Shown here: positions 3,723-60,829 of the stretch, one piece after another
Numbering within the stretch: position 1 is the stretch's first letter
Layout: each line of letters opens with the position of its first letter
IMG/VR virus record: IMGVR_UViG_2687453623_000004
Strand: one strand, 5' to 3'
Length of the DNA: 64,000 nt
From: a virus
Taxonomy: Duplodnaviria > Heunggongvirae > Uroviricota > Caudoviricetes
Program-made: the position numbers and the translations under genes
Notes under the pieces: model-generated
The model's database searches: none
What the model was told of the DNA's origin: nothing
What the model saw: only the letters and a program-made list of their open reading frames with translations

Positions 3723-3749
3723 TTTTTATGATTTCTCCAGTTGTGCTGA

Positions 3750-4019: not shown

Positions 4020-4021
4020 TA

Positions 4022-8546: not shown

Positions 8547-8592
8547 ACCTCTTTTGCGATATGTGATAACCTTTTACAAAGACTCAAAATAT

Positions 8593-8781
8593 TTAGGCCG
8601 CCTGAGCTGTTGATTTCAGTCCCAACTTCACGGCGATTTCATGGGATTTACCGTAACGGGCTTTGGTCTGCCCGTTGAGAACGCGGTATACCTCATTGCG
8701 GTTGTAGCCGTTTTCTTCTGCCCAGCGGGTGAAAGTGATCCCGCGCTGGCGGAAGAGAGCTTTGACTTGTTCTGCAGTCAT
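8593..8781 (-). CDS. ner: Ner-like DNA-binding protein (first gene of early operon)
   Basis: 62 aa; resembles Ner/Nlp family; divergent from repressor gene. Confidence 0.7.
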   Translation of the reverse strand: MTAEQVKALFRQRGITFTRWAEENGYNRNEVYRVLNGQTKARYGKSHEIAVKLGLKSTAQAA

Positions 8782-8833
8782 CGTTGTCTCCTTTGTTGAT
8801 GCAATGATGTTTGCCTTATATGTGTTAGATTAT

Positions 8834-8851
8834 TGCTCATAATTATGAGCA
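8834..8851. promoter_or_regulatory. Putative operator: perfect 18-bp palindrome TGCTCATAATTATGAGCA in the ner / repressor divergent region
   Basis: Read directly; an extra TATGAGC half-site overlaps the repressor start codon around 8873-8879. Confidence 0.45.
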
Positions 8852-8874
8852 TATCAAGATAGAGATTCACTTTT

Positions 8875-9231
8875 ATGAGCAAAGATATAGGAGAGCGCGT
8901 TATTTCTGTGAGGAAGAAAGCAGGGTTGAACCAGAGAGAATTTGCAGCTCGTTTAGGTATTTCTAATGGTGGTATCAGTCAGATTGAAAATGGAAAGGCG
9001 ATGCCTGGAGGGGAGTTTCTGTTAAAGATGCATCAAGAGTTTAATGTTGATGTAAATTGGTTGCTCACTGGAATGAGCACAGATGGTATGACTAGAAACC
9101 AGAATCAAATTTCCCCAGAAAAACAAAAACTAATAGATACTTTTGACGACATGACACCAGACCAACAACGCTCATTTCTTGAGATTGGGCGATTCTATAC
9201 TCAGCCAAAACCAGGAAAAATCGCAGGCTGA
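8875..9231 (+). CDS. XRE-family HTH repressor (c-repressor analogue)
   Basis: 118 aa; N-terminal LNQREFAARLGISNGGISQIENGK HTH; divergent from ner. Confidence 0.7.
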   Translation: MSKDIGERVISVRKKAGLNQREFAARLGISNGGISQIENGKAMPGGEFLLKMHQEFNVDVNWLLTGMSTDGMTRNQNQISPEKQKLIDTFDDMTPDQQRSFLEIGRFYTQPKPGKIAG

Positions 9232-33484: not shown

Positions 33485-34734
33485 TTATGGGAAACCTGAA
33501 TGAAACAGAAAAGTGGGAAGAAAATATCTATCAACTGGAGACATCAGATCCGGTTCTGGGTGGTGCAGACGGGATATCAAATCGAGCCCCCCGGCAACTG
33601 GCAAACAGGACGAAATGGCTGAAGAAGAAAACGGAGGAAGCCGCACAGTCACTGGCTGAACACGTACGTTCCCGTAACCACCCGGACGCGACACTGACAG
33701 CTAAGGGGTTCACCCAACTGAGCAGTGCCACCAACAGCACCTCTGAAACGCTGGCCGCCACACCAAAAGCGGTCAAGGCTGCATACGACCTGGCAGCCGG
33801 CAAGGCGCCTGCCAGCCACACTCACCCGTGGAGTCAGATAACGGGAGTGCCTGCGGCTTCACTGACGGCAAAAGGCACCGTACAACTGAGCAGCGCCACG
33901 GACAGTCAATCAGAAACTGAGGCTGCCACGCCGAAGGCGGTCAAGGCTGCATACGACCTTGCAGCCGGCAAGGCGCCCGTCAGCCACACTCACCCGTGGA
34001 GTCAGATAACGGGAGTGCCTGCTGCCTCGCTGACGGCAAAAGGCACCGTACAATTGAGCAGTGCCATCAACAGCACGTCTGAAATACTGGCCGCCACACC
34101 GAAAGCGGTCAAGGCTGCATACGATCTGGCAAACGGAAAACAACCGGCAGATGCCACGCTCACTGCTCTGGCAGGACTTGCCACTGCAGCAGATCGGTTG
34201 CCTTATTTTACCGGAGCAGACCGCGCAGAGCTGGCAACCCTTACAGCTATTGGTCGCGCTATTATCGCTAAGGGCAGTATAAAAGATGTCCTCAATTACC
34301 TTGGTTTGGGGGAAGGCTCGGCGCTGCCCGTTGGTGTACCTGTTCCGTGGCCCACTGCCACACCGCCAGCAGGCTGGTTAAAGTGCGACGGGCGCGCCTT
34401 TACAAAAGAACAATATCCTGTTCTGGCCAGAGTCTACCCGACCCTCCGTCTTCCCGATTTACGCGGTGAGTTTATCCGTGGATGGGACGACGGGCGAAAA
34501 GTGGATACAGGGCGCGATCTGCTTTCACGGCAGGATGGTACAAGTTTTTCTCATTACGCAGGTAATTTTGACATTGGGTCTGGTCATTCAATCAATAACT
34601 ATGACCAAATCGTTGACAACCAACCTGGATTCTCCCGTTTTTCATTTGCAGGTCCTTCGCGAGGCGATGGGGTTAATTATGTGACCATTCGTCCCCGTAA
34701 CATTGCGTTTAATTACATCGTAAGGGCGGCATAG
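33481..34734 (+). CDS. Tail fibre protein S (constant part plus currently expressed C-terminal cassette Sv1)
   Basis: 417 aa; repeated TAKGxxQLSSAxxSxSE...[16 protein letters not shown] units; C-terminus ...[14 protein letters not shown]. Confidence 0.75.
   Translation: MIMGNLNETEKWEENIYQLETSDPVLGGADGISNRAPRQLANRTKWLKKKTEEAAQSLAEHVRSRNHPDATLTAKGFTQLSSATNSTSETLAATPKAVKAAYDLAAGKAPASHTHPWSQITGVPAASLTAKGTVQLSSATDSQSETEAATPKAVKAAYDLAAGKAPVSHTHPWSQITGVPAASLTAKGTVQLSSAINSTSEILAATPKAVKAAYDLANGKQPADATLTALAGLATAADRLPYFTGADRAELATLTAIGRAIIAKGSIKDVLNYLGLGEGSALPVGVPVPWPTATPPAGWLKCDGRAFTKEQYPVLARVYPTLRLPDLRGEFIRGWDDGRKVDTGRDLLSRQDGTSFSHYAGNFDIGSGHSINNYDQIVDNQPGFSRFSFAGPSRGDGVNYVTIRPRNIAFNYIVRAA
34289..34314 (+). 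promoter_or_regulatory. Putative Gin/Hin-type crossover site A inside S
   Basis: TCCTCAATTACC-TT-GGTTTGGGGGAA resembles hix/gix half-sites (ACC-TT-GGTTT core); begins a ~210-bp segment repeated at 34740 and, inverted, at 36130-36346. Confidence 0.45.
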
Positions 34735-34753
34735 AAACGTTGGTTTGGGGGAA
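34730..34753 (+). promoter_or_regulatory. Putative crossover site B (direct) immediately after the S stop codon
   Basis: CATAGAAACG-TT-GGTTTGGGGGAA. Confidence 0.4.
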
Positions 34754-35206
34754 GGCTCTGCATTGCCTGTTGGTGTACCGGTTCCATGGCCCACCGCCAC
34801 ACCGCCAGCAGGCTGGTTACAGTGCAACGGAGCTACGTTCACCAAAGAACAATATCCTGTTCTGGTCAGAGTCTACCCGACCCTCCGTCTTCCCGATTTG
34901 CGCGGTGAGTTTATCCGTGGATGGGACGGTGGTCGCAAGGTTGATACCGGGCGTGCGCTACTTTCATTTCAGGAAGGGACTATCGTATCCGGTTTTGATG
35001 ATAATGATACCGGAGATATCAGTTCGCTCGGCTCTACACAATACGGATTTGGTGACGCTTTAACCTCTAATCAACTGGGGGTCTTAAATGGCAAAAAGTG
35101 GATATTTGATGCATCCTCTAAAGGTGCACAAAGATATGACTGGTGGGCTTATGTATCAGCTCGCCCCCGCAATATCGCATTTAACTATATCGTGAGGGCG
35201 GCGTGA
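34745..35206 (+). other. Silent alternative tail-fibre C-terminal cassette (Sv2), no upstream constant region in frame
   Basis: Homologous to the S C-terminal region (PVGVPVPWPTATPPAGWL ... [14 protein letters not shown]) but diverged in the middle; lacks an independent start context. Confidence 0.5.
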
Positions 35207-35212
35207 TACCGT

Positions 35213-35827
35213 TCAGCCGGCAAGCGCCAGTGGCGCTTCCGGCCAGCTGATTTCAGGTGCCTTGCTGATATCCAGTGCGTTCAGCTCGTCGATATAATCC
35301 AGCACGGCGTTCAGTTTTGCCGTTTCTTCTGGTTTCAGACTGCGACCAGCACGCAGTTTGAGGTTGATAAGATCGACGGACGCCATCGCCTGTTTCACCC
35401 GTTGCTGGCGTTGCTGTCTGGCAACCTCCAGTTCTGCGGCTCGCTGCCGTTCAGTATCGGTTACCCACGCCTCACCGTTCCAGGTATCCCATGGCGTGGC
35501 TGGCTGTTTTGTGGTGGTGTCCGCCGGGTAATCACCCGGTTGGGTAATCAGAACGGGGTTACCGTTCTCCGTGCTGTATACCGTCTCGCCGCGGTGATCA
35601 GGCACATGCTCCCACCCGTTCAGCGTGGCAGTCCGGCAAACCACGTAACCCGAAATTGCTTCCGGCGGTGCATCGGCGCACGAATGTGCCGGAGTACCCA
35701 CCCCAAGGGCGAGATACTCCACAGAGGATGAGGTGTATTCCCGGGTTTCCTCGTCATAGTGATATACAGTGATATCGCCCGCTACAGTGGCGATACCGTT
35801 TTCATCCAGAACTGCAGTGTTACTCAT
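35213..35827 (-). CDS. Tail fibre assembly protein (U'-like), inverted orientation
   Basis: 204 aa; C-terminus ...ISWPEAPLALAG typical of Tfa family. Confidence 0.6.
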   Translation of the reverse strand: MSNTAVLDENGIATVAGDITVYHYDEETREYTSSSVEYLALGVGTPAHSCADAPPEAISGYVVCRTATLNGWEHVPDHRGETVYSTENGNPVLITQPGDYPADTTTKQPATPWDTWNGEAWVTDTERQRAAELEVARQQRQQRVKQAMASVDLINLKLRAGRSLKPEETAKLNAVLDYIDELNALDISKAPEISWPEAPLALAG

Positions 35828-36309
35828 TAAACTGCCCTCACAATGTAATTAAGTGCAATGCTACGGGGTCTGACAGTGATACCCTTCGCATACCCGCTTC
35901 TGATAGAGGTCAGAATAGTAGCCTGCATACCATTGTCTGACATTGCCACGACAGGATCGCTGAATGTTGTCCCGTCCGGCATTTTAAAGCTGCCCTCACG
36001 AAGGTCTGTAATGGAATCTTCATTGTTGAATCCCATGCCGACTATCCCCGAGGTTCCCGTAGTGTCCTGGTTATAATAATCCAGCATTGCTGTTCTTAAC
36101 AGCGTTGCCCCTTGTGCGGACAGCAACTTACGTCCTGTATCAACTTTGCGCCCGTCGTCCCATCCACGGATAAACTCACCGCGTAAATCGGGAAGACGGA
36201 GGGTCGGGTAGACTCTGGCCAGAACAGGATATTGTTCTTTTGTAAAGGCGCGCCCGTCGCACTTTAACCAGCCTGCTGGCGGTGTGGCGGTGGGCCACGG
36301 AACAGGCAC
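35827..36309 (-). other. Inverted alternative tail-fibre C-terminal cassette (Sv3)
   Basis: Begins PVPWPTATPPAGWLKCDGRAF..., ends ...RPRSIALNYIVRAV; its 5' ~210 bp is almost identical to S at 34301-34512 in inverted orientation. Confidence 0.6.
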
Positions 36310-36320
36310 ACCAACGGGTA

Positions 36321-36346
36321 GCGCCGAGCCTTCTCCTAAACCAACG
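36321..36346 (-). promoter_or_regulatory. Putative crossover site C (inverted)
   Basis: Reverse complement GATAAACG-TT-GGTTTAGGAGAA. Confidence 0.4.
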
Positions 36347-36407
36347 TTTATCTCTCAAATCCTCCCCACATTATCTCAGTACTTTAACCACTCAAAAGGG
36401 AGTATTT

Positions 36408-36983
36408 TTAATGCTGATTGGCTACATACGTGTGTCAACAAATGACCAAAACACAGATTTGCAACGCAATGCATTAATGTGCGCAGGATGTGAACAGATT
36501 TTTGAGGACAAAATGAGCGGAACCAAGTCGGAACGACCAGGCCTGAAACGCGCTTTAAAGTGCCTTAAAAGAGGGGATACATTGGTGGTCTGGAAGCTGG
36601 ATCGGTTGGGTAGAAGAATGAAACACCTCATTGCTCTCACAGAAGAGCTACGCGCAAAAGGTGTCAATTTTCGCAGTCTGACGGATTCAATCGATACCAG
36701 CACTCCGATGGGAAGGTTCTTTTTTCATATGATGGGTGCACTGGCAGAAATGGAGCGTGAACTGATAGTTGAGCGCACGCTGGCTGGACTGGCTGCTGCG
36801 CGAGCACAAGGAAGAGTTGGAGGACGTCGCCCGAAACTGACGAAGGAGCAGCATGAGCAGATCGCAAGATTGCTCCAGAAAGGGTATGACAGAAAGCGGC
36901 TGGCAATTATCTATGATATTGGACTGTCAACGATCTACCGCTATCACCCTGTTGGGACTGTCATAACGCAACCTGAAATGTAA
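36408..36983 (+). CDS. gin: Serine DNA invertase (Gin/Hin/Pin family)
   Basis: MLIGYIRVSTNDQNTDLQ ... catalytic Ser motif and C-terminal HTH; start at internal Met of the track ORF. Confidence 0.85.
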   Translation, partial: LMLIGYIRVSTNDQNTDLQRNALMCAGCEQIFEDKMSGTKSERPGLKRALKCLKRGDTLVVWKLDRLGRRMKHLIALTEELRAKGVNFRSLTDSIDTSTPMGRFFFHMMGALAEMERELIVERTLAGLAAARAQGRVGGRRPKLTKEQHEQIARLLQKGYDRKRLAIIYDIGLSTIYRYHPVGTVITQPEM

Positions 36984-48338: not shown

Positions 48339-50785
48339 TTAACCGTCATGCATCATGCTGGCACGGGCGCGCGCTCGTTTATCCCGCTCGTATTTTTCGA
48401 GCGCATCCTGTAACTGGCGGTCGAGCTGTGTCCCCGGCGCAGTACCACCCGTCAGGCTGATGTGATATTCGTTTTTACTCTGGTCTACATAAGAGCGGCC
48501 AGCCGGTGCCGTGACCGGCTGATAAGCCTGATAACCTGCATAAGAGCTGGTCGCCGGAATATAACCACCGCTGCCATACGTGGCGGCTTGAGTTCTGGCG
48601 GCGGTCTGGTCAAGTGTGTCTGACTCTTTGTTGATAACACCGAGTTTTTCCAGTACCCAGTCAATACCACTGCGCAGTTTGTTGAACGCATTAAGCGGCA
48701 GCATCAGCGCGTCAGCCAGTGCCTGCCCGAACATGACGCCCGTGTCACGGCAACGGTTCAGGGTGTCCTGGGTGGCTTTGACCGGGGCAATCAGGTTTTT
48801 AAACCACTGCCACGCGGCCTGTAACTTTTCACCCAGCCAGTCAAACACCGGTTTAAGTGGCGTGAACAGTTCCCCCACCGGCGTAAATGCCGCTTTCAGC
48901 CCTTCCACCACACCGCCAAAGAATGCGCTGACAGGCTCCCAGTATTTACGGATAAGCAACGCCCCGGCGACAATGGCGGCCACCACGGCCACAACCGGCC
49001 AGCTAATCGCCCCGATGGCGGTCATAACAGCACTGCCAACCGTCGTGAAGATTGCCCCCATTGCGCCTGCTGCCGCGATGATGGCATTGATGCCGGTGAT
49101 AACCGGCCAGGCTACGAGGCCAATGGCACCGATGACACCAATCAGTGCCAGTGCACCACCGACAATGATGCCGATGGTTGACGCCAGTGATTTGTTTTTC
49201 TGGATCCAGCCGTCGAGTTTTAACACATACTTTGTGGCCGTCTGCGTGAGATTACGCAGTGCGCCTTCCTGCTGGTCAAACAGGTCAGTCCCCACCGCCT
49301 CATAAGCGGACTGAAACTCCTTAAAGTCACCGCCGAGGTTATCCTGCATGATTTTAACCAGCTCTTCCGTTTTACCGTCCGAGGCTTTCAGCGTGGCGGT
49401 CAGCTTATCCAGTTTTCCGCTTGCTGCCGCTGCCAGTAAAACGTTCGCTGATTTCAGGGCTTCCTCACCAAAAATGGTTTTAAGGTATTCCCCCTTCTGA
49501 GACGTTCCCAGCTTGTGTTTATCAAAGCTGGCCTGAATCTCTTTCAGAATGGTGAACAACGGACGCATATTTCCCTTTTTGTCCGAGGTTTTAACGCCAA
49601 GCTCTTTGAGTGCATCCCATGCTTTTCCAGTCGGTGCCTGTAATCGGGTGACAACGGCACTACTACCCGTACCCGCCATTGACCCCCTGATGTTATTGTC
49701 ATGCAGCACACCTGTCATGGCCGCTGCCTGCTCAAGACTTACGCCTGCCGTCCTCGCAACCGGCCCGAGGTAAGTCAGTGCATCACTGAGTCCCTGAAAA
49801 TCAGCGCCGACTTATTCATCGTTGCAGACAACACGTCGCCCACATGGCTGACATCATCATTTGACAGTTGAAAGGATGCCTTAGTCCCCAGCAACAGTTG
49901 CGCGTTTTCTTCCATCGACCGCTGATTCGCCAGTGCCATATTCAGCGTGACCGGCGTTGCCGCCTGAATAGCCGCAGCATCTCCACCCGCTTTCGCAATG
50001 ATAATCTGCGCACCGGCCGCATCATCCGCCGAGGCGGCTGTGTTGTCACCGAGCTGGCGCGCCTGTTTGCGGAGTGCGGTCATTTCGGCGGAGTCTTTTG
50101 CCACTCCGAGCACGGCCTGCAATTCTGAGTTTTTCTGCGCAAACTCATAACCGGGCATCAGCAGCTTAACTCCGGCCATCGTTCCCGCAGCAGCAATCCC
50201 CGCACCGGCAGCGCCCACTGAGGCCATATTTCCGGCCAGTTCCTTTCCTGCCTGATAACGCTGTTTGACTGCGTTAAGTTTTGCCTGTTGTACACTGACA
50301 CGCGCCAGCGCGTCACGCTGACGGTTAAGCTGTGCGGTGGTTTCACTGATACGGTTTTTCAGTCCCTGCTCATCATGTGCAAGATTGCGGGTATTAATTC
50401 CCACAGCGGCCAGTTCTCGCTGCTGGCGTTTAACGGAATCTGTCAGGCGGTTATATTTCGCCTGTAAGTCCTCCGCCGCACGCTTTGCGGATTCCAGCAC
50501 TTTCGCCTGAGCACGGGTCGGACGTTCGGTGTTTTTAAACTGTGTGGCAAGGGCTTCGGCTTCCTGTCGAGCCTTTTCAAATGCATGACCAGTCACGGCG
50601 AGCTGTGCACTGGTCTTGCGGAATCCCTCAATACGGGATGCGTGACCGTTCAGCTCGCGCAGTGATTTTTGTGTTTCCCGGATATCCCCCGACAGCGACT
50701 TGCTCGCTGTACGGATGGATTTAAACGGGCGGGATGCCTGGTCAACAGCCCTGAGCAATACCTGTAATTTTACATTGTTACTCAT
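48339..50785 (-). pseudogene. T: Tail tape measure gene T, split by a frameshift into 336-aa and about 487-aa reading frames
   Basis: Two minus-strand ORFs in different frames overlapping only at 49778-49811, which contains an AAAA run; combined length about 812 aa versus roughly 815 aa for P2 T (from memory). Confidence 0.6.
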
Positions 50786-51261: not shown

Positions 51262-51780
51262 TCACAGGCCGATATTGCGGCGGTGTTGCTCCAGCCGGTC
51301 GACGCCGTTCACCTTCTCAATCATGTTGATGGTGTCGATTTCGACCAGCTCCTTACCGTCCATCGTCAGCCGGAAATAGGTGCAGACCACGGAGATTTTC
51401 GACTCGGTGTCTTCTCCCTGTTTACCCTCTCCGGTGTCGATTTCTTTCTGACGTCCACGCATGACCACTTCGACGGCCACCGTTTCGCCGGTATCGTCAC
51501 GCTGGTAAGAGCCTGCAAAACGAATCGGCACGGCATCCACGCCGGTTGCGGCGTAAAGCTCCCAGATAACCGAATCCGGGAAGCCCCCGAGCGACCACTC
51601 CATTGACAGCGCATCGTCATCAAGGCCGAGGTCTACCGGTGCGCTGCCGTTCATCCCCGCACCGCGATAGTTTTCGAGCTTACGGGTCAGTTTTGGCAGC
51701 GTGACGGACTTTGCAACGCCCTGATAGCTGTAGCCGTTCAGAAAGACGTTCATTAACTTGAGTTTGCGCGGCATTGCCAT
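51262..51780 (-). CDS. FII: Tail tube protein FII
   Basis: 172 aa. Confidence 0.85.
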   Translation of the reverse strand: MAMPRKLKLMNVFLNGYSYQGVAKSVTLPKLTRKLENYRGAGMNGSAPVDLGLDDDALSMEWSLGGFPDSVIWELYAATGVDAVPIRFAGSYQRDDTGETVAVEVVMRGRQKEIDTGEGKQGEDTESKISVVCTYFRLTMDGKELVEIDTINMIEKVNGVDRLEQHRRNIGL

Positions 51781-51792
51781 CGGTCAGGCTCC

Positions 51793-52983
51793 TTAATTGC
51801 TGTTAACCGAGGTGACCAGATTTGCCAGGTATTTATCGGTAATACGCTGGCGCAGGGTCAGGTTTTCAAGAGGAGGCACCGGTGTATAGTCGTAGTCGAT
51901 ATACAGTTTTCCGGCCTTGAGGGTTTCCGCATCGTTGGATTCTTCGCTGAACCAGCAGGTCGCATCCACGATATAGCCGTTTGTTTTCAGCTCACGGAAT
52001 TTGGCATTGATGCCGTCAACGATGTCGCGAATCAGCGTTGCGGTGATGGGCTTGTCCACCGCCCACATGTGCGCCTCAGCCATCGTGTCGGCAAGCACCT
52101 GCGCGGTGCGGGTGTAGTTTTCAAAGAGGAACAGCGGGTCATCAGAGCAGGTACGGTTACCCCAGAAGCGGAAACCGTCACGGCGAATCAGCGTTGTGAC
52201 GCCTGACTCGTTAAGCAGGTCAGCATCGGTACCGGACTCCTGCAAATCCCAGAATACAGAGGCGCTGATGCCGGTAACACCGCTTACCCCGACGTTGGAC
52301 AGCGTTTTATGCCAGCCCTGCTCCTGGTCGATTTTAGCACGCAGGCCCAGTGCACGAGCGGTGGCATACGCGGTGGCGGTGGTACTGGCGACCGTATCCC
52401 ATGCGAGGAAATCCGGCCAGATGACCATCAGCTCACGCTGGCTGAAATTCTGGCGGTAGGCTTTCACCTCGGAAATGGTCTTACAGCCCCATGCGCTGAT
52501 ATACCCGAAAGCGCGCAGCTTCTGACAGACTGATGCCAGTGCGACGGCAACCTCTTTGGTGTCCAGTCCCGGCACACCAAGAATACGCGGTTTAACACCG
52601 GTTACCGACTCCGCCGCCAGCAGGGCTTTCAGTCCGGTGTACTGACCGTTTTCGTCGGTGGTGCCGATGATATTGGAAATGGTCTGCGCAAGTTTCGTTT
52701 CTTCGTCGTCGCCGGTGCCGTCTTCCACACGCACGACAACGGTGACCGGTTTTGACTGGTCGGCGATGGCCTGCAACGATGCCGCCAGCGTGCCTTTTTT
52801 ACCGGCCTTTGCAATTGCGCTCTGCACATTGGTTATCAGCACCGGTTTATTGAGGGGGAAGGTTTCCGCATCCGCATCGCTGGCCGTGCAGACCATGCCG
52901 ACAATGGCCGTGGATACGGTGGAAATGACGCGGGTGCCGTCGTTAATCTCCAGCACCTGCACGCCGTGATGATAGTCACTCAT
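51793..52983 (-). CDS. FI: Tail sheath protein FI
   Basis: 396 aa. Confidence 0.85.
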   Translation of the reverse strand: MSDYHHGVQVLEINDGTRVISTVSTAIVGMVCTASDADAETFPLNKPVLITNVQSAIAKAGKKGTLAASLQAIADQSKPVTVVVRVEDGTGDDEETKLAQTISNIIGTTDENGQYTGLKALLAAESVTGVKPRILGVPGLDTKEVAVALASVCQKLRAFGYISAWGCKTISEVKAYRQNFSQRELMVIWPDFLAWDTVASTTATAYATARALGLRAKIDQEQGWHKTLSNVGVSGVTGISASVFWDLQESGTDADLLNESGVTTLIRRDGFRFWGNRTCSDDPLFLFENYTRTAQVLADTMAEAHMWAVDKPITATLIRDIVDGINAKFRELKTNGYIVDATCWFSEESNDAETLKAGKLYIDYDYTPVPPLENLTLRQRITDKYLANLVTSVNSN

Positions 52984-53106: not shown

Positions 53107-53294
53107 TGCCTTGATTTGTTCTCACTCAGCTTCCAACTGACAAGTTACATAATCAAAACGCTATTAAATCTGACAGTCTGCTTTGAGCGATGAACGGACA
53201 TAACGACTCACTAATGACTAATTTGCTAACCGCTTCCGACCCAAAACTGTCGGTTGCATGATAATTAATCCAGCAAGCAAATTCATAGTCATTG

Positions 53295-53771
53295 CTATAT
53301 GTTACTGGGATTATTAAAAGGGATAATACTGGCCAATCCGTCATCAACATCAAGACCATAGGTAACCGCTATTTCTGCCAGAGAGTTACCACACTTTTGT
53401 CGCAGTTTAAAAAGGGCTCGCTCAAGTATGGATATTTGAACAGGATGATCAAGTTGGATAAAGTGAGGGGAGCCAACGCTGTCACAGAATTCTTGGCATG
53501 CTTTTCTCATTTTCCTTAATTGTTTTGCTAAATGTGAATCGCTCGGCAAACCTTGTAGGACTTTAGTCAATTCAGATCTAATGTTGATAACACTCGAAGT
53601 GCAATGACTAGCACCCTCCATGTCGACAGGATTGAAAAGAACGCGCTTGTCCTCAAGAAAAATGACGATCTTCTTCGCTTCGTCAGTTTCTATTATTGGA
53701 GCATTCCACTGAATCCCGAATATGGGACAGCTAAGGCCAGTAATATTTTTATAGATTTGTTCAAATTTCAA
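53295..53771 (-). CDS. Cargo protein of unknown function (158 aa) in the G/FI hotspot
   Basis: AT-rich; apparent TTG start 7 nt after a strong AAGGAG; own terminator; no family recognised. Start codon position by my count is 53770-53772 (one-nt discrepancy with the track). Confidence 0.5.
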   Translation of the reverse strand: MKFEQIYKNITGLSCPIFGIQWNAPIIETDEAKKIVIFLEDKRVLFNPVDMEGASHCTSSVINIRSELTKVLQGLPSDSHLAKQLRKMRKACQEFCDSVGSPHFIQLDHPVQISILERALFKLRQKCGNSLAEIAVTYGLDVDDGLASIIPFNNPSNI

Positions 53772-54030
53772 AAGTCACTCCTTGGATGGACTCTGAGCAT
53801 ATAAAACGCCATACTGATAAACGGACTCGGTTCAAGTAATCTGTTAGATAGCATAACTCGGAACCACTGTAAAAATAGTTGTTAACATACCTAAAAGTGA
53901 CAGCGGAGGCAAGATTCCCTCAGCCGGAGCGATAAATTAGGCATAAGTTATACACACATTAGTAATAATCACTAAAGATATTCTAATTTTTTATGCCGAC
54001 TTAATATGATTTCCCGTCAATCAGGTTAGC

Positions 54031-54054
54031 GTCCGCTCCTGGCACAAAGCGGAC
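54031..54054 (+). repeat. 24-bp hairpin repeat copy 1 (GTCCGCT-CCTGGCACAA-AGCGGAC)
   Basis: Perfect 7-bp stem; second copy at 54954-54977 with 21/24 identity. Confidence 0.6.
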
Positions 54055-54159
54055 GAGGTAACTGAGCTAAAGGTCCGCTGTGAGCGAAAAGTGGACATTA
54101 GAGTTACAAAAGTAAGTTTAAATCATCCAAAATATTACAATATCCTTATCTATCTGATA

Positions 54160-54189
54160 TTGTTATGATAAAAAGTTCCTGAATATAAT
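54160..54189 (+). promoter_or_regulatory. Sigma70-like promoter for the membrane-protein gene
   Basis: TTGTTA, 18-bp spacer, TATAAT; AGGTGG ribosome-binding site 9 nt before ATG 54212. Confidence 0.45.
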
Positions 54190-54211
54190 CGATAGTAGGT
54201 GGTTATTTTCC

Positions 54212-54589
54212 ATGAAATCAATTTTAGAGGTTTTTACTCAAGGAAATACTAAAGAAAAACTGGCTGTTATCGCTGATCTCACAACCATTGCGGGAATATC
54301 GATAGCAACTATTATTGCTGGTTTGTTAACCCTAGTTGCAAAAACAGATAAACTAGATGTTGGAAATCTGTTTGGAGTTGTCATAATATCTCTGCTCGGA
54401 TTGGCTGGTGTTTGCTGTTTTATGGCCCTATTTATTTGGGTTATAACCCAAATGTCTAAACCATGGGGAACACCTCGGGGGATTCAGTCCTTAGTTAAGT
54501 GTGCTATTTCCCTTATCTTTATCTGTATTTTTTTGCTGGCTGTCTTTACATTTTATGAGGTTATTTCTTCGATGAGAATACTCTATTGA
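54212..54589 (+). CDS. Small membrane protein (125 aa, three predicted helices), unknown function
   Basis: AT-rich; hydrophobic stretches IAGISIATIIAGLLTLVA, VVIISLLGLAGVCCFMALFIWVI, AISLIFICIFLLAVFTF; own promoter and terminator. Confidence 0.5.
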   Translation: MKSILEVFTQGNTKEKLAVIADLTTIAGISIATIIAGLLTLVAKTDKLDVGNLFGVVIISLLGLAGVCCFMALFIWVITQMSKPWGTPRGIQSLVKCAISLIFICIFLLAVFTFYEVISSMRILY

Positions 54590-54614
54590 ATATAAAATCA
54601 GCTCTCATAACTTA

Positions 54615-54643
54615 AAAGAGGCCTTCTATAAGGTCTCTTTTAA
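54615..54643 (+). terminator. Rho-independent terminator after the membrane-protein gene
   Basis: AAAGAGGCCTT-CTAT-AAGGTCTCTTT followed by TAATTG. Confidence 0.5.
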
Positions 54644-54953
54644 TTGAATTACCATCCTATTAATCCAGAGAATCTTTATCATCACAAAATAACAAACATT
54701 GGAGATAATTAATAAACTAATCATCCTCAAGATCATCTTTATCTTTACAAAGCGAGTGTCAGTATTCATCCTAACATCAAGTGCAGAATGGAGTATTTTA
54801 TGTATCTTCATGCCGCTTGCACGCTTTATCTCGTTTTTTGTAGGTGGTGTACTATCTCTAAATGACCATTTATATGGTGTAAGACTACTGACTTTAGAGG
54901 GCTATGATCTACATAGTTCTTCTAACCATTATTCTCCAAATAAACTTTACAAC

Positions 54954-54977
54954 GTCCGCTCCTGGCACGGAACGGAC
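54954..54977 (+). repeat. 24-bp hairpin repeat copy 2 (GTCCGCT-CCTGGCACGG-AACGGAC)
   Basis: Same orientation as copy 1; an AATCAGG-like flank lies on the opposite side (CCTGATTAGG). Confidence 0.6.
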
Positions 54978-55642
54978 AGCCTGATTAGGTTTTACTCTGT
55001 GCCATAGATGAGTAATCTCATACCAGAGCTAATACGATTTATTGCGGCATTTCTGGCCATTCTATATCCGGAGCATTTTCCGGCTGAACGCGATTCAGTA
55101 GCACACGGTATTTTTTCCAGTGTGTCAGGCTTAACTTTTCTTCCTCGGTAGCCATATCTAAATCGACAGCATCCTGCAGAGTGCCAATAATTTCACCGGC
55201 ATATGCAATCTGCTCTTTCTTCTGAGACTCCGCCGCTCTGACAAGTGCATCATGCTCTGCATTCTCATCATTCACCCACGCATTTCCGTTCCATTTCTGA
55301 TAATCCCCATCCGGGGAAATGGCTGTCACGTCTGGAGGTAATGCACCAAGTTCAGAAATATAAATGGCTGCTCCCGTTTTCGTTTCGTAGACAGTCTTTC
55401 CGCGATGATCTTCCATCAACTCCCATTTCATTTCATCTGCATTGAAAACGGCTGCATAACCAGCAGGAATATCAGGTGGTGCAATATCTGTACTGTTTGC
55501 AGGCAGACCTGTATGCGGCGGAATATATGCATCACTTTCGCCAATAAACTCATTGGTTGCGTATTACCGTGAAGGAGATCGGTGAGTAACATCGATGGAG
55601 ATCGGTTCGTGTCACTTTCACAGAACCGTTTTTAAATTACCT

Positions 55643-56392
55643 TCACTGATCTCCTTCGGTCAACGGAGATTGTATTTTCCGCATTGATTCTCCTTTAAGT
55701 TCGATCTTGATACTGCCATGAACCAGTCGATCTAGGATGGCATCCGCATGTGTGGAGTCTCCGATCATTTTGTACCAGTTTTCCACCGGCAACTGGCTCA
55801 CTACGATGATTGAGCCTCGTTGGTACATCAGATCCACTATTTCCAGCAGGTCGCTACGCTGTTCTGATGAGAGAGGTTCCAGCCCCCAGTCATCCAGAAG
55901 CAGCAGATCGCTATTATTCAGCCTGGTCAAAAGTTTGCTGTATCTTCCATCAGCATGCCCCTGATAGCACTGTTCCATCAGCGCTTTAAGGCGATAATAG
56001 TAGACCTTGTATCCCTGTCGGCAGGCATTATGACCAAGTGCACATGCCAGGAACGTTTTACCGCTGCCGGTGGCCCCGGTCAGTAAAATATTTTGTTTCA
56101 GGGTTAACCAGTTTCCCTGACTGAGTGAACGGATGAGGGCCCTGTCCAGCCCTCTATTGTTACGATAATCCAGCTTTGATAACTCAGCATTAAGTCTGAA
56201 CCGTGCATGTTTGATCAGACGCTCTGCCTTCCTGTTTTCACGGCAGGTTAGTTCTTCTGCTGTCAGTAATGACAGGCGTTCTTCGAAGCCCAGCTCCTGG
56301 TATGTGCCCGGTTGAGCAAGTTGCTTTTTAAGCGCATCACGGAAGCCGGTGAGTTTAAGTGCGGTCAGTTGTTCGTAAAGATGATTCATCAT
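55643..56392 (-). CDS. istB: IS21-family helper ATPase IstB
   Basis: 249 aa; Walker A LTGATGSGKTF. Confidence 0.85.
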   Translation of the reverse strand: MMNHLYEQLTALKLTGFRDALKKQLAQPGTYQELGFEERLSLLTAEELTCRENRKAERLIKHARFRLNAELSKLDYRNNRGLDRALIRSLSQGNWLTLKQNILLTGATGSGKTFLACALGHNACRQGYKVYYYRLKALMEQCYQGHADGRYSKLLTRLNNSDLLLLDDWGLEPLSSEQRSDLLEIVDLMYQRGSIIVVSQLPVENWYKMIGDSTHADAILDRLVHGSIKIELKGESMRKIQSPLTEGDQ

Positions 56393-56403
56393 TGGATCCC
56401 GTA

Positions 56404-57945
56404 TCAGTGGTAATACTCACTGCCGCGTACGTTTTCGTGTTCCATCGTGGATAACAGATCTGGTTTTGGATCCTGAACAGGTTGTTTATCCAGACCTTTT
56501 TCCAGGATCGATTTAATACCTGACAGACGCCATACCTTTGTTTTCAGAGCTCTTGCACATGCTGCATTAAGTCTGGCTTTACTGTATTTTTTATGAAGGT
56601 TCAGGAGTCCAAGGCAGAAGCGATAGCTTTGTTCCGGATGTGGACGAGAGTTCAGTATATGAAGCACATAACTATGAGTTTCACTGCCTATGTGCCCCGC
56701 CCATTCCAGAAGACGCTCTGGCGTCCAGGTGGCATGCTGTCGATGAGCTTCAGGCATGTGCTCGTTGCGGGTACTGTAGCCATAAGTACGCTTGCGCGGG
56801 TGCACAGCAACCTCCTGCCCCTGATTGAAGAGTCTTACCAGTTCTCCGGAGATCCATGCTTCCAGTTGCTGGCCTAACAGCGAACATGGAACCGAGTAGT
56901 AATGTTTGTCGATTTCCACGTGGTAATCGGCATGAACTCTGACTTTCTTCACCAGGGTGTAACTGTAACTGGCTTCAGGAAGAGGCTTCAGTGCGGGTTT
57001 ATCAAGCTGGATGAAGAGTTCTGCACGTGAATAACCCAACTTCTGCATTATTTTGTTATTCAGTCTTTCCAGCAACTCCCGAATGCGCTGATTAAGCGAT
57101 GCAAGGCTGTAGAAGATCTCATGCCTGATTCGGGCCATGATCCAGCGTTCAACAACCTGAACGCCAACTTCAGCTTTGGCTTTATCTTTCGGTTTACGTG
57201 GCCGCGCAGGCAAAACTGCGACATTATAATGCTCAAGCATCTGCTGGTAGGTAGGGTTAACGTCAGGATCATACTTACATGCCCTGGATGTGGCGCTTTT
57301 CAGATTGTCCGGAACAACAAGTTCAGGAACGCCACCCAACCACTGGAAGCAGCGAACATGACTCATCACCCAGTCTTCAAGCTGCTGAGACCAGGTGGCC
57401 TCTGCCCATGTGTAACTTGATGCCCCGAGAACAGCTACGATGACCTGAGCAGTTCTTATTTCTCCGGTCTCAGGGTCGGTAACGCCAACGGTAGGTCCAC
57501 AGTAATCAACGAAAAGTTTTTCGCCAGCTTTATGTACCTGACGCATTGATGGTGAAGTGGTTTTGAGCCATTCACGGTACATCCGGCAGTAATGGTTATA
57601 GCTGTAAAAACCGCCTGGATTACGCTCACAGTATTCTTCCCAGAGTAGCTGCAGCGTCACGCATTTATTACGCAGTTCCCGGTGTACTGTAGCCCAGTCA
57701 GGCAGAGAGTGCTTCTTCATCTTAACCTGGGTCTGAAGGAACGCATGTTTTAGTTTTGTATCATCCCATCCTGTAGGTAAGGGCCACTGCTTTATGCCAA
57801 GTTGAGCCGCCCGATTAGCATATCTGGATACAACGGAAGGGGAGATTGCAAGACTACGACCAATTTGTCGATGGCTGAGTCCAACACCGTATTTAAGCCT
57901 AAGAATTTCTTTAAGTTTTCTCATAGAAATTGGAACTGTTGGCAT
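56404..57945 (-). CDS. istA: IS21-family transposase IstA
   Basis: 513 aa; N-terminal HTH; upstream of istB. Confidence 0.85.
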   Translation of the reverse strand: MPTVPISMRKLKEILRLKYGVGLSHRQIGRSLAISPSVVSRYANRAAQLGIKQWPLPTGWDDTKLKHAFLQTQVKMKKHSLPDWATVHRELRNKCVTLQLLWEEYCERNPGGFYSYNHYCRMYREWLKTTSPSMRQVHKAGEKLFVDYCGPTVGVTDPETGEIRTAQVIVAVLGASSYTWAEATWSQQLEDWVMSHVRCFQWLGGVPELVVPDNLKSATSRACKYDPDVNPTYQQMLEHYNVAVLPARPRKPKDKAKAEVGVQVVERWIMARIRHEIFYSLASLNQRIRELLERLNNKIMQKLGYSRAELFIQLDKPALKPLPEASYSYTLVKKVRVHADYHVEIDKHYYSVPCSLLGQQLEAWISGELVRLFNQGQEVAVHPRKRTYGYSTRNEHMPEAHRQHATWTPERLLEWAGHIGSETHSYVLHILNSRPHPEQSYRFCLGLLNLHKKYSKARLNAACARALKTKVWRLSGIKSILEKGLDKQPVQDPKPDLLSTMEHENVRGSEYYH

Positions 57946-58204: not shown

Positions 58205-60829
58205 TTATGCAAGCCTCACAATATAGTTAAATGCGATGTTTTTGACGGTGTTTTCTGTATTACCTGTAGCATTAACGGTAATAGAGTGCCCGTGTGAGCC
58301 AATAGCAACCGTGTGTGAATGTGCACCAATACCAACCGTATGATTATGTGCACCAATATCTACCGTGTGGGCATGATTCCCGGCAGCTCCTGATGTGCCA
58401 TTAAACGATGGGTTGTCAAAGCCTGTTTTACCGGTTTCACCATTAGTATTGGCATTCCCTCTGTAAATGGTATGTGTATGGTTACCAGTGGTATTAGTGG
58501 TTTTTGTTCCGTAGTTAAACGTACTGACTGTCTTCGTCCCGTAATCAAACGAACTGGTTGTTTTCGTTCCCAAATCCGTATTTGACGCACTGGCACTGTG
58601 AGTATGCGATTTAATCCCGTCCTGTTCCTGTGACAATACGGCACGCCCACTGGCGGGTTTGCCCTTGATTGTCCAGCCGCGCATATCAGGAATAACACCA
58701 GAAGGATAGGCTATAGCCAGTTTCGGATATGCTGCCTTATCAAACGTCTGCCCCTGCATGATTGCATAGCCTGCAGGTGGTGTATCTGATGGCCACGGCA
58801 GCGGAACACCAGGCGGAAACGCTTCAATATTTGCCGAGCCGTCAAATTTTACGCCGTTAATTGTCCTTGCCGTTTTCAGCTTTGTTGCTGTAGCCGCATT
58901 GCCGGACAGTTCACCAGAAAGGCCTGCACTGAATGTCTGTTTTGCCTCCCATGTCTGGGCTTCGTCGATAATTGGTAGCCGACGAATATTGAAGCTACGC
59001 TCCCCAGGATTGCCATATAAGCGGACTGTAAAAAAACGATAGTTGGTTTTGTTTGAAGTGCTGCGCCATACCTGCATTGAACGGGCGACACCTCCGCCTT
59101 CACTGGGGCCAACAGTGATATTTATCAGGTTAGTATCAATGACGCCCCATTCCATCCCATCGGGAATATTGGTCATATCTGAAAGCCTGACAGTTATCAT
59201 GCTGCCCGGTATAAAGTCGTAGGTCTGCCAGTCCAGACTGGATAACCTGTCGGTAACACCGCCGACACCTAATTTAGTGAGTAATGATTTTGAGTTGTAT
59301 ACTTCCGCCCATTCCCCCCAGTCAGTTTCACCGCTGGCGCGGGTTCGCTGAAATGTCCGGTTTTTATAGGCATCCGTTGCTGAAACAGTCGTATATGTCT
59401 GGATATACGATTCAATATCACAACGTTTTTTCACCTCAACTATTGAGCCAACAGCAAGATCTTTAGAGTCGGTGACAGGTGCATTTGTGGCCTGTTTCGT
59501 GACGCTATAAATACCAGGCTTTAAAAGGTCATCAAGATCCCCTGAATAAGTCCATCCCGTGGACTGATACCCAACAGCAATCCAGTCCTCCCATTGTGGA
59601 TTTTCTGCATCCCATGAGGCTGTCAGTCCGCGAATGTACATAGTCCCACTACGGGTGGTATAACGTTGCATCCTCCCATACAGACCGCCTTCAAAGACTT
59701 CCAGAATACCCTGTCCAAAACTCCCTTCCTCCGGGAAATGACGGTCAAATGAGGCTATTGATGTACTGCTATTGCGCCATATTCCCAGGTGTTCCGCACC
59801 ACCTAAAGAATTCAGGTCAATTGACGTGCTTAATGGGCGAGTCCCGCTTGTAATAGCTCTCCATGCACTCCATACAGGACTGACAGGGTTCCATTCTGCA
59901 TCAAGCATCCGAATGTAAATATTACCGGTTCGGGTGGTGTAGCGTTGTGTGCAGTGAAAGCGACCAGCATTGAATACTTCCAGAACCCCATTGCCTTTAT
60001 CTTCAGGGTAACCAGACTCTGGTTTTGCAGTGGATTGTGACGGACATGACCACGTTCCAAGATATTTTTCTTCTGGGCCATAGGAATCAAGATTGTCAGT
60101 GGTTGGAATCATTCCATTGTGTTTCATAAACGTCAGGCTGGTAACGCCAATATTGTCCAGAAAAGCGCCCTTATCTGGAATATCGCCACCGTTCTGGTCT
60201 TTCTGCAGACGTTTCTCAGCATTGTCATAGGCTGCTTTTACTGCCTTTGGCGTTGCTGCCAGCTTTTCACTGGTGCTGTTTGTTGCACTGCTTAACTGAG
60301 TAAAACCTTTTTCTGTCAGCGTGGCGTCAGGATGGCGGCGGGACTGCTCATGCTCTGCGATTTTGTCATCGACGTAATCCTGCGTCGCCATCACTGTGCT
60401 GGCATCAATACTCAGCTCAACAGACGCCACGTTACTGACAATAATGACCATGCGGCAGGTCTGCGCACGCCCGGAGCCTTCAGCCAGTTCAGGCTTATAG
60501 CTTTCTGCCATGTTAGCGACCGCAATCAGTGTTCCGGCATCATCATACAGACCAAGTTCACGCATCCAGAAGCCGCCCACTTCTGGCGGTACAACCAGTT
60601 CAGCCACGATATAGTTTTTATTCTTGTTATCCACGCTGACTTTATTCAGAGCGTGACGCCAGACCTCATGCACCAGTTTCGTCTGACCGGCATCCGGCAC
60701 CGGCAATTTGCCATTACCGTCACCCACGGCCATTGCAGACAGGTTTACTTTTTTCCCGCCGGGGACAGTGGCGGCTGCCAGCTTTGCGGCTCCGGCAGTA
60801 GTGATAACGGTTTTAAATTTCGTGCTCAT
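58205..60829 (-). CDS. H: Tail fibre protein H (mosaic, longer than P2 H)
   Basis: 874 aa; P2-like N-terminus; C-terminal region with GAHxHTV repeats and ...[12 protein letters not shown] end shared with the Mu-like fibre cassettes. Confidence 0.8.

What the first reader, a model, noticed from the sequence alone, without database searches (positions are those of the whole stretch)
54160..54643. Independently expressed 125-aa three-helix membrane protein
TTGTTA-18 bp-TATAAT promoter, AGGTGG SD, ATG at 54212 and a hairpin terminator at 54615-54643 define a monocistronic unit on the strand opposite to all flanking phage genes. The product has a short soluble N-terminus and three strongly hydrophobic segments. 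This is the architecture of small membrane effectors such as superinfection-exclusion, abortive-infection or holin-like toxins.
Basis: partly seen in the sequence, partly recalled or inferred. Interest (0 to 1): 0.55.

Follow-up and report, generated by a model that had tools for sequence, protein, structure and literature searches.

The report
Orphan three-helix membrane gene, prophage hotspot
A real, conserved but uncharacterised small inner-membrane protein gene sits in the anti-phage "Z/fun" cargo slot of a defective P2-like prophage; it is what remains of a two-gene cassette whose ATPase gene was deleted, so it is a reasonable but untested phage-exclusion candidate.

Summary
The 125-aa ORF (54212-54589, +) is real. 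It is conserved at 125 aa across Enterobacterales, with dN/dS 0.2-0.4 between genera. It belongs to a small stand-alone family (PHROG 4155; 56 clusters among 1.84 billion proteins). The predicted protein has a short N-terminal helix plus three long helices, N-in/C-out. It has no Pfam, PADLOC, NCBIfam, PDB or fold relative.

It lies between tail genes G and FI of a P2-like prophage, the known Z/fun defence hotspot. It is not a lone unit by origin. Window 54071-54975 is a 2.5-kb cassette (membrane gene plus a convergent 556-aa Sll1717-family P-loop ATPase) with 1.6 kb deleted. Only the last ~59 ATPase codons survive.

The neighbouring DUF6650 gene is a separate cassette. Both cassettes are bounded by conserved ~25-bp near-palindromic sites. 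The same sites flank fun(Z) in P2 and known defence genes such as PD-T7-1 and HEC-08 elsewhere.

The holin and toxin readings are not supported. A membrane-level phage-exclusion or abortive-infection role is the best guess, and it rests on context only. The promoter match is no better than chance.

The parts
54212..54589 (+). CDS of the 125-aa three-helix inner-membrane protein (RefSeq WP_001576671.1, 'hypothetical protein'; PHROG 4155)
   Evidence: ORF; RefSeq annotation; PHROG hit E 5e-79; 17 full-length homologues; dN/dS 0.2-0.5 between genera; AF2 model with pLDDT 81 and helices 4-10, 13-43, 50-81, 89-120.
54160..54189 (+). Plausible but not above chance, and only partly conserved.
   Evidence: 10 of 12 matches; 8 sites found against 7.4 expected in the region; alignment A4.
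54138..54175 (+). Conserved non-coding block CAATATCCTTATCTATCTGATATTGTTATGATAAAAAG upstream of the gene. It holds an alternative -10, TATGAT, at 54164-54169. Probably the real promoter or operator region.
   Evidence: conserved from E. coli to Yersinia and Pectobacterium, where all other flanking DNA differs; homology with those loci starts at 54134.
54197..54202 (+). Shine-Dalgarno AGGTGG, 9 nt before the ATG
   Evidence: The variants AGATGG, ACGCGG and AGGTTG in other genera are shown.
54612..54643 (.). Strong hairpin between the membrane gene and the remnant of the convergent ATPase gene. Likely a bidirectional terminator.
   Evidence: -16.5 kcal/mol, z -4.4. Conserved in Enterobacter and Serratia. 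The S88-type rearrangement breaks inside its loop.
54716..54895 (-). Pseudogene remnant: the last ~59 codons (aa 498-556) of a 556-aa Sll1717-family P-loop ATPase, with a frameshift near the end. It explains the spurious 61-aa ORF at 54626-54811.
   Evidence: tblastn gives 89% identity, E 4e-26. Frame comparison. ATPase family NF047389 at 209 bits.
54897..54975 (.). Right-end segment of the ancestral 2.5-kb cassette, corresponding to DNA 110-185 bp upstream of the ATPase start codon. It is joined directly to the remnant, which marks a 1.6-kb internal deletion.
   Evidence: L013 5881-6685 matches window 54089-54896, and L013 8285-8360 matches window 54900-54975.
54072..54096 (.). Left boundary site of the membrane-gene cassette (GTCCGCTGTGAGCGAAAAGTGGAC), roughly the reverse complement of the right-end site
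   Evidence: It coincides with the BLAST breakpoint 54072/54073.
54953..54977 (.). Right boundary site of the membrane-gene cassette (CGTCCGCTCCTGGCACGGAACGGAC)
   Evidence: It coincides with the end of cassette homology at 54975.
53176..54054 (.). Neighbouring independent cassette: left site 53176-53200, DUF6650 gene 53295-53771 (-), right site 54030-54054 (CGTCCGCTCCTGGCACAAAGCGGAC)
   Evidence: Pfam DUF6650 at 2.1e-16; sites; absent from 'alone' loci such as KSC207; present elsewhere without the membrane gene.

Best explanation
The ORF encodes a small inner-membrane protein made from its own regulatory region. The protein has a cytoplasmic N-terminal amphipathic helix and three transmembrane helices, N-in/C-out, with an invariant Asp22 at the start of the first helix. 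It is accessory cargo of a defective P2-like prophage, carried in the Z/fun slot between tail genes G and FI.

It arrived there as the first gene of a ~2.5-kb cassette bounded by ~25-bp near-palindromic sites. That cassette also carried a convergent Sll1717-family P-loop ATPase. In the E. coli lineage a 1.6-kb internal deletion removed the ATPase and left the membrane gene intact.

My committed reading is that the protein acts in the cytoplasmic membrane against incoming phages. It could hinder genome entry, or it could permeabilise the membrane once infection is sensed. I also read it as able to work without a fixed partner.

Shown: the gene, its conservation, its predicted topology, the locus, the cassette structure and the deletion. 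Inferred from context only: expression, and any anti-phage activity.
For: Real, constrained gene.

Family of 56 clusters, all 113-135 aa (one is 183 aa), matching over the full length and never fused to another domain.

Positive-inside pattern across 33 members. Mean K+R is 3.6 in the N-terminus, 0.9 in loop 1, 2.6 in loop 2 and 0.9 in the C-terminus.

The N-terminus and first helix are the most conserved part. D22 and G28 are invariant.

AT-rich cargo, 36.5-38% GC against 56% for the tail genes.

Locus is the P2 Z/fun hotspot.

Relatives sit in other cargo or defence contexts.
- P2 hotspot #1, beside a reverse transcriptase: with Pfam.
- Beside TIR-CHASE2, PIN and Abi_alpha genes.
- Beside a RelA_SpoT-like gene and an Acb2/Tad1-like gene.
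- On relaxase-bearing elements.

No constant partner.
- An 88%-identical ATPase occurs in E. coli and on Enterobacter plasmids without the membrane gene.
- The membrane gene occurs without the ATPase.

The same boundary sites flank fun(Z) in P2 and cassettes carrying PD-T7-1, HEC-08, RES and RelA_SpoT genes.

The gene stays intact on more than 1,000 contigs after the ATPase deletion.
Against: There is no experimental or homology evidence for any function.
- PADLOC, Pfam and NCBIfam gave nothing.

The promoter is not statistically supported, and expression is unknown.

Within E. coli the few differences are 3 synonymous and 7 non-synonymous, dN/dS about 0.75. That is what neutral drift after loss of a partner would give, although with 10 changes it cannot be told apart from dN/dS 0.3.

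In every site-bounded variant the membrane gene shares one left/right site pair with a convergent gene. That gene is the ATPase, a 276-aa DUF2971-like protein, or an integrase plus DUF5677. This fits a two-part system as well as it fits independence.

One distant homologue lies between housekeeping genes.

The gene is absent from all 50,697 deposited phage genomes.
Confidence: 0.4

Rival explanations
1. The membrane protein is the constant effector half of a modular two-gene system. A convergent partner (the Sll1717 ATPase, or its replacements) senses infection and triggers the membrane protein. In this window the sensor is deleted, so the gene is an inert orphan kept only by recency.
For: The membrane gene and ATPase form one discrete 2.5-kb unit with identical boundaries in Enterobacter, Klebsiella and Serratia, in different surroundings, with no internal site. 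Synonymous divergence is comparable for the two genes: dS 0.12-0.16 for the membrane gene and 0.20-0.33 for the ATPase. The ATPase is distantly related to the validated anti-phage protein DS41_1, at 55 bits. The membrane gene is always the first gene after the left site, with a variable convergent gene before the right site. dN/dS is about 0.75 within E. coli after the deletion.
Against: Convergent rather than operonic arrangement, with each gene having its own upstream region. The ATPase family (more than 987 proteins) is far larger than the membrane family (56 clusters). The ATPase occurs at 88% identity without the membrane gene. Distant membrane homologues have unrelated neighbours or none. 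The orphan is intact and very widespread.
Confidence: 0.25
2. It is a membrane protein with a role unrelated to phages. Examples would be immunity to a membrane-depolarising bacteriocin or contact-dependent toxin, or an envelope-stress or small-solute function. On this reading it simply travels with mobile-element cargo.
For: Small multi-helix membrane proteins transcribed on their own are typical immunity proteins of pore-forming toxins (my own knowledge). Polymorphic-toxin genes (DUF8093 with phospholipase or nuclease domains) lie within 5 kb in the Serratia and Yersinia loci. Some site-bounded cassettes carry metabolic-looking genes such as HAD plus NUDIX. One homologue sits among housekeeping genes.
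Against: No toxin gene is adjacent in any E. coli locus. No colicin- or microcin-immunity family matched. Most contexts are prophage hotspots or defence-rich islands.
Confidence: 0.15
3. It is a holin-like or type-I-toxin-like membrane toxin. It would kill or arrest the cell when expressed.
For: Three hydrophobic helices and small size. Membrane effectors of abortive-infection systems are toxic when activated (PMC9122126).
Against: Topology is N-in/C-out with a 6-residue C-terminus carrying one charge. Class I holins are N-out/C-in with a charged cytoplasmic tail (plus my own knowledge of lambda S). In the matching LS4 record the prophage has its own holin and lysis genes. No holin family matched. 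No antitoxin, antisense RNA signal or regulator is evident. A constitutively transcribed toxin could not be carried on more than 1,000 contigs.
Confidence: 0.05
4. It works together with the divergently transcribed DUF6650 protein. That would be a split version of the transmembrane-fused ThsG effectors of type VI Thoeris.
For: DUF6650 is the ThsG effector domain, and some ThsG proteins carry N-terminal transmembrane helices (bioRxiv 10.64898/2025.12.03.692087). A 299-aa DUF6650 protein is a validated single-gene defence (PMC13092281). In the window the two genes are 440 bp apart.
Against: Only 17 of 63 genomes with the membrane gene have DUF6650. DUF6650 occurs in 10 genomes in other islands without the membrane gene. 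The two genes lie in separate site-bounded cassettes. No TIR gene is present at the locus.
Confidence: 0.03

Closest known systems
Phage P2 Fun(Z), the classical occupant of the same slot
   Same: Same position between G and FI. Same orientation against the tail operons. AT-rich lysogenic-conversion cargo. Flanked by the same kind of boundary site.
   Different: Fun(Z) is 528 aa and unrelated in sequence. tblastn and blastn of the window gene against all phage records, P2 included, found nothing. Fun(Z) has a known phenotype, blocking T5; this gene has none.
Small phage or prophage inner-membrane superinfection-exclusion proteins (T4 Imm, P22 SieA, HK97 gp15)
   Same: Small, independently expressed, membrane-embedded accessory proteins of phages that act alone at the cytoplasmic membrane (my own knowledge). 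This is the functional class I consider most likely.
   Different: No sequence, Pfam or fold similarity to any of them. Exclusion activity is untested.
Membrane effectors of two-part defence systems (lambda RexB, Kiwa KwaA, the hydrolase + transmembrane and TIR + transmembrane systems of P4/P2 hotspots)
   Same: A multi-helix membrane protein encoded next to a cytoplasmic NTPase or enzyme in a mobile-element hotspot. Transmembrane proteins are read as suicide effectors in PMC9122126.
   Different: No PADLOC model matches. The partner is convergent, variable and dispensable in distribution. In this window the partner is deleted.
Sll1717-family P-loop ATPase / DS-41 anti-phage protein (the lost partner)
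   Same: The remnant at 54716-54895 belongs to NCBIfam NF047389 (209 bits for the intact Enterobacter gene). It is distantly similar to the validated DS41_1 anti-phage protein.
   Different: Only 55 bits against the DS41_1 cut-off of 370, so it is not that system. Only ~59 codons remain here.
Integron cassettes, and the site-specific recombination proposed for P2 inserts by Nilsson et al. 2004 (Mol Biol Evol 21:1)
   Same: Small cargo units of one to a few genes, bounded by a conserved palindromic site, stacked in tandem at a fixed slot. A tyrosine recombinase gene is sometimes adjacent.
   Different: The sites are not attC-like. The two ends are inverted copies of each other. The recombinase is only ~200 aa and is usually absent from the locus. 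I could not read the 2004 paper, so I do not know how much of this it already described.

Membership tests
Class I holin | Three transmembrane helices with N-out/C-in topology and a charged cytoplasmic C-terminal tail | tested here: not met
   The positive-inside count over 33 family members puts the N-terminus and loop 2 inside (K+R 3.6 and 2.6) and loop 1 and the C-terminus outside (0.9 and 0.9). The C-terminus is 6 residues with a single Arg.
Class I holin | Encoded in the lysis cassette next to the endolysin; matches a holin family | tested here: not met
   The gene lies between G and FI. The closest matching record (LS4) annotates the prophage's holin, endolysin, LysB and LysC elsewhere. 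There is no holin Pfam hit at E<1.
Known anti-phage defence systems (PADLOC-DB v2) | Match to a model of a known or candidate defence protein | tested here: not met
   0 families at E<=1 for the 125-aa protein.
P2 Fun(Z) | Sequence homology to P2 gene fun(Z) | tested here: not met
   tblastn and blastn against 50,697 phage records, P2 included, gave no match. Fun(Z) is 528 aa.
P2 Z/fun hotspot cargo (positional class) | Located between tail-fibre assembly gene G and the pF promoter/tail sheath gene FI of a P2-like prophage, AT-rich, variable between phages | tested here: met
   (Caudo_TAP). The hotspot is described in PMC9519451 and PMC13586616.
Type VI Thoeris (TIR + DUF6650 ThsG) | A TIR-domain gene adjacent to the DUF6650 effector | tested here: not met
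   The DUF6650 domain is present in the neighbour, but no TIR gene is in the locus. The membrane gene is in a different cassette.
Two-gene membrane protein + Sll1717 ATPase cassette | Intact convergent 556-aa ATPase gene within the same site-bounded unit | tested here: not met
   Only codons 498-556 remain, with a frameshift. 1.6 kb is deleted. No complete E. coli genome has the intact pair.
Pore-forming colicin immunity proteins (E1 type) | Match to a colicin/microcin immunity family and an adjacent colicin gene | tested here: not met
   No such Pfam or NCBIfam hit. No bacteriocin gene is in any E. coli locus.
Superinfection-exclusion membrane proteins | Blocks infection or DNA entry of other phages when expressed from the prophage | not testable with these tools
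   Needs plating and DNA-entry assays. Only context speaks for it.
PHROG 4155 / the 113-135-aa family found here | Full-length match; N-terminal G-x2-K-E-(K/R)-L-A-x-I-A-D-L motif followed by three hydrophobic helices | tested here: met
   PHROG 4155 at E 5e-79 over residues 1-125. The profile search gave 56 clusters.

The most novel reading that the evidence does not exclude
The three-helix protein is the constant membrane module of a modular defence cassette. Its convergent partner is swappable (Sll1717 ATPase, a DUF2971-like protein, DUF5677). These cassettes, like fun(Z), PD-T7-1, HEC-08, DUF6650 and others, would be moved in and out of the P2 Z/fun slot and other islands by a dedicated ~200-aa tyrosine recombinase acting on the ~25-bp boundary sites. 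That would be the recombination process that recent work on P2/P4 hotspots says is still to be elucidated (PMC13586616).
Probability: 0.15. Interest if true: 0.75.

Novelty: new member of a known kind. Interest (0 to 1): 0.4.

Why it matters
If the protein excludes phages, it would add an unrecognised single-gene membrane defence family. That family is carried by common ExPEC lineages (the S88/ST95-type and O25:H4-type strains). It would also give a natural experiment, membrane gene with and without its ATPase neighbour, for asking whether such small membrane proteins act alone. The boundary sites found on the way may explain how cargo is exchanged at the P2 Z/fun hotspot. As it stands, the gene is an ordinary 'hypothetical membrane protein' moron with contextual evidence only.

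Tried and rejected
- Pfam, NCBIfam and PADLOC on the 125-aa protein gave nothing meaningful.
- The PDB sequence profile search gave only chance hits, E>=0.06.
- A link to DUF6650 was rejected by distribution.
- An obligatory link to the ATPase was weakened: an 88%-identical ATPase occurs without the membrane gene in E. coli and on Enterobacter plasmids.
- A recurring 276-aa partner in Yersinia and in a metagenomic locus turned out to be two unrelated proteins.
- Scans of genome contigs were unproductive. The first alignment was too diverse. The narrower alignment gave no confirmed hit. The single protein gave one locus.
- The idea that the boundary site is a REP-type high-copy repeat was rejected: median 1 and maximum 6 copies per E. 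coli genome.
- Rfam found no RNA family in the cargo region, only a sub-threshold IS009 hit inside gene G.
- Literature searches for the protein accessions, PHROG 4155 and Sll1717 found nothing.
- Nilsson et al. 2004 could not be read.

Full report
**Setting.** The window carries a P2-like prophage on the minus strand.
- The tape-measure gene T is split into two ORFs (48339-49718 and 49775-50785).
- Then come E, FII (51262-51780) and FI, the sheath gene (51793-52983).
- Further on are the 3' part of the tail-fibre assembly gene G (55039-55431, Pfam Caudo_TAP 1e-40), an IS21-family element (55643-57945) inserted in G, and the fibre gene H (58205-60829).

The 2-kb stretch between FI and G is 38% GC, against 56% for the tail genes. 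In phage P2 this slot holds fun(Z). Vassallo et al. describe it as a second defence hotspot of P2-like phages (PMC9519451; also PMC13586616).

**Observation check.** The hairpin is 54612-54643, with a 14-bp stem, -16.5 kcal/mol and z -4.4.

The promoter-like site at 54160-54189 exists, but the region has 8 such sites against 7.4 expected by chance. Its two hexamers are only partly conserved. TTGTTA is specific to this lineage, and TATAAT becomes TATAAC or TAAC outside E. coli.

A 38-bp block at 54138-54175 is conserved even in Yersinia and Pectobacterium, where everything else upstream differs. It contains an alternative -10, TATGAT. So the gene does travel with its own upstream region, but which promoter is used is not settled.

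**The gene is real.**
- RefSeq annotates it as hypothetical protein WP_001576671.1.
- It matches PHROG 4155 (unknown function) at E 5e-79.
- Seventeen homologues from Escherichia, Enterobacter, Klebsiella, Serratia, Yersinia and Pectobacterium align without gaps apart from end truncations in two; all but those two are 125 aa.
- dN/dS is 0.19-0.50 between genera.
- A profile search of 1.84 billion representatives found 56 clusters. All are 113-135 aa except one of 183 aa, and all match over the full length.

**Protein features.** Across 33 diverse members the most conserved part is the N-terminus plus the first helix. The motif is G-x2-K-E-(K/R)-L-A-x-I-A-D-L, with D22 and G28 invariant.

Basic residues cluster in the N-terminus and the second loop. 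Mean K+R there is 3.6 and 2.6, against 0.9 and 0.9 for the first loop and the C-terminus. This predicts N-in/C-out.

AlphaFold2 with the 33-sequence alignment gives pLDDT 81, with helices at 4-10, 13-43, 50-81 and 89-120.

**Distribution.** 63 of 5,426 complete E. coli genomes carry the gene, always on the chromosome. In every locus I inspected it lies between G and FI of a P2-like prophage. There are three arrangements:
- alone, as in KSC207;
- with a DUF6650 gene between it and FI, in 17 genomes including this window;
- with a ~194-aa tyrosine recombinase plus a DUF5677 gene on the G side, as in S88, ATCC 11775 and APEC strains.

The two commonest protein variants were seen on at least 1,000 and on 354 contigs. 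No deposited phage genome has the gene. Ten IMG/VR contigs do.

**The unit is half of a decayed cassette.** In Enterobacter ludwigii, Klebsiella michiganensis and Serratia marcescens the gene is followed about 125 bp downstream by a convergent 556-aa gene. That protein is a 'P-loop ATPase, Sll1717 family' (NF047389, 209 bits). It has weak similarity (55 bits, cut-off 370) to the validated anti-phage protein DS41_1.

The three genera share one discrete ~2.5-kb block with the same ends, in different surroundings.

Window 54071-54896 matches the left 825 bp of that block. Window 54897-54975 matches its last ~75 bp. So the E. coli copy has lost about 1.6 kb.

The minus strand at about 54716-54895 still encodes ATPase residues 498-556 at 89% identity, with a frameshift near the end. 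This also explains the 61-aa ORF at 54626-54811. No complete E. coli genome has the intact pair.

It is conserved only in this lineage and is broken in the S88 arrangement.

**Are the two genes one system?**

For:
- They share one cassette.
- They show similar synonymous divergence.
- The ATPase is under very strong constraint, dN/dS 0.02-0.03.

Against:
- An 88%-identical ATPase occurs in E. coli and on Enterobacter kobei plasmids with no trace of the membrane gene.
- The ATPase family has more than 987 members, against 56 membrane-protein clusters.
- In Yersinia, in Pectobacterium and in five more distant homologues, the neighbours are unrelated or absent.

Those other contexts are mostly conflict-related:
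- P2 hotspot #1, next to a reverse transcriptase (Pfam RVT_1);
- a TIR-CHASE2 / PIN / Abi_alpha island;
- a RelA_SpoT-like gene and an Acb2/Tad1-like gene;
- relaxase-bearing elements.

One homologue lies between housekeeping genes.

Within E. coli the copies differ by 3 synonymous and 7 non-synonymous changes. This fits relaxed constraint, but the numbers are too small to decide.

**The DUF6650 neighbour is independent.** DUF6650 is the ThsG effector domain of type VI Thoeris. It is also part of a validated single-gene system. Here there is no TIR gene. The 871-bp DUF6650 segment is missing from most loci that carry the membrane gene. It occurs in ten genomes in other islands without the membrane gene.

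**Boundary sites.** The BLAST breakpoints at 53201/53202, 54072/54073 and 54975 coincide with a ~25-bp near-palindromic site.
- The right-end form is CGTCCGCTC-CTGGCACA-AAGCGGACG, at 54030-54054 and 54953-54977.
- The left-end form is roughly its reverse complement, at 53176-53200 and 54072-54096.

The exact 15-mer occurs only twice in the 64-kb window.

The same sites occur elsewhere:
- at the end of the 2.5-kb cassette in Enterobacter, Klebsiella and Serratia;
- flanking DUF6650 in another island;
- 40-80 bp past the stop of the small recombinase gene in three contexts. This recombinase is 91% identical between S88 and Enterobacter.

P2 itself has such sites on both sides of fun(Z), at 15335-15359 and 17431-17455. 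The chance expectation is at most 0.03 per 10 kb.

A 24-mer pattern of the site has 84 exact matches in IMG/VR. In 29 of the 80 loci fetched it lies just beyond gene G.

About 30 different cargo segments lie between site pairs. They include PD-T7-1 (3.8e-83), HEC-08 (4.9e-145), RES, RelA_SpoT and a protease like those of RT-protease, Lamassu and Hachiman effectors. They also include HAD plus NUDIX genes.

The site is low-copy in E. coli, with a median of 1 per genome.

The title of Nilsson et al. 2004 suggests that site-specific recombination at P2 inserts was proposed before. I could not read that paper.

**Conclusion.**
- Firm: the gene is real, the predicted topology is consistent across the family, it is hotspot cargo, and it is the survivor of a deleted two-gene cassette.
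- Function is inferred from context only. I favour a membrane-level anti-phage role that does not need a fixed partner (0.4).
- Next is an orphaned effector of a two-part system (0.25), then a non-phage membrane role (0.15).
- The holin/toxin reading and the DUF6650-partner reading are poorly supported.

Noticed in passing
window 53176-53200, 54030-54054, 54072-54096, 54953-54977; also P2 NC_001895 15335-15359 and 17431-17455; L013 8338-8362; L042 3432-3456 and 4329-4353: A conserved ~25-bp near-palindromic site (9+8+9: CGTCCGCTC-CTGGCACA-AAGCGGACG, and its inverted form) marks the ends of each cargo cassette and both edges of the P2 Z/fun slot. It has 84 exact matches in IMG/VR and low copy number in E. 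coli genomes. About 30 different cargo segments lie between site pairs, including PD-T7-1 and HEC-08. It may be the recombination target for cargo exchange, and may already be described in Nilsson et al. 2004, which I could not read.
   Followed up: partly
L005 (E. coli S88) 8472-9056; L013 (Enterobacter) 3732-4334; remnant in L016 8414-8503; L042 1688-1909; L073 5429-5995: A short (~194-200 aa) tyrosine recombinase, 91% identical between E. coli S88 and Enterobacter, recurs next to these cassettes. In three contexts it has a boundary site 40-80 bp past its stop codon. It is a candidate enzyme for moving the cassettes, but it is absent from most site-bearing loci.
   Followed up: partly
window 53295-53771 (-): The 158-aa gene is a DUF6650 protein (Pfam 2.1e-16). 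That is the ThsG effector domain of type VI Thoeris, but here there is no TIR gene and no transmembrane segment. It forms its own 0.87-kb cassette, which also occurs next to Gabija-like genes and in CP4-type islands.
   Followed up: partly
window 55643-57945 and 48339-50785: The prophage looks defective. An IS21-family element (ISEc12, istA/istB) splits tail-fibre assembly gene G, and the tape-measure gene is broken into two ORFs. RefSeq marks the tape-measure gene as frameshifted in the closest matching strain, LS4.
   Followed up: partly
window 54138-54175: A 38-bp non-coding block upstream of the membrane gene is better conserved across genera than the coding sequence. It contains the short palindrome TATCTGATA, so it may be an operator as well as a promoter.
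   Followed up: no
window 54020-54100: The two adjacent boundary sites between the DUF6650 and membrane-gene cassettes can fold together into a long structure (-29.9 kcal/mol, z -2.9). This might insulate the two divergent transcription units.
   Followed up: no
window about 33685-36983: A second phage-derived region ends next to aroA. It has tail-fibre gene fragments, a tail-fibre assembly gene and a 'recombinase family protein', which looks like an invertible tail-fibre segment. This was seen only in the annotation of the matching LS4 record.
   Followed up: no
L044 39390-42712 (E. coli LS4, beyond the window end): Hotspot #1 of the same prophage, between the portal and replication genes, carries four uncharacterised genes including a DUF2971 protein. 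In Yersinia the gene convergent with the membrane gene also shows weak DUF2971 similarity.
   Followed up: no
window 55076-55274 (-): A sub-threshold Rfam hit to IS009 (51 bits against a gathering score of 117) inside the 3' part of gene G. Probably not meaningful.
   Followed up: no
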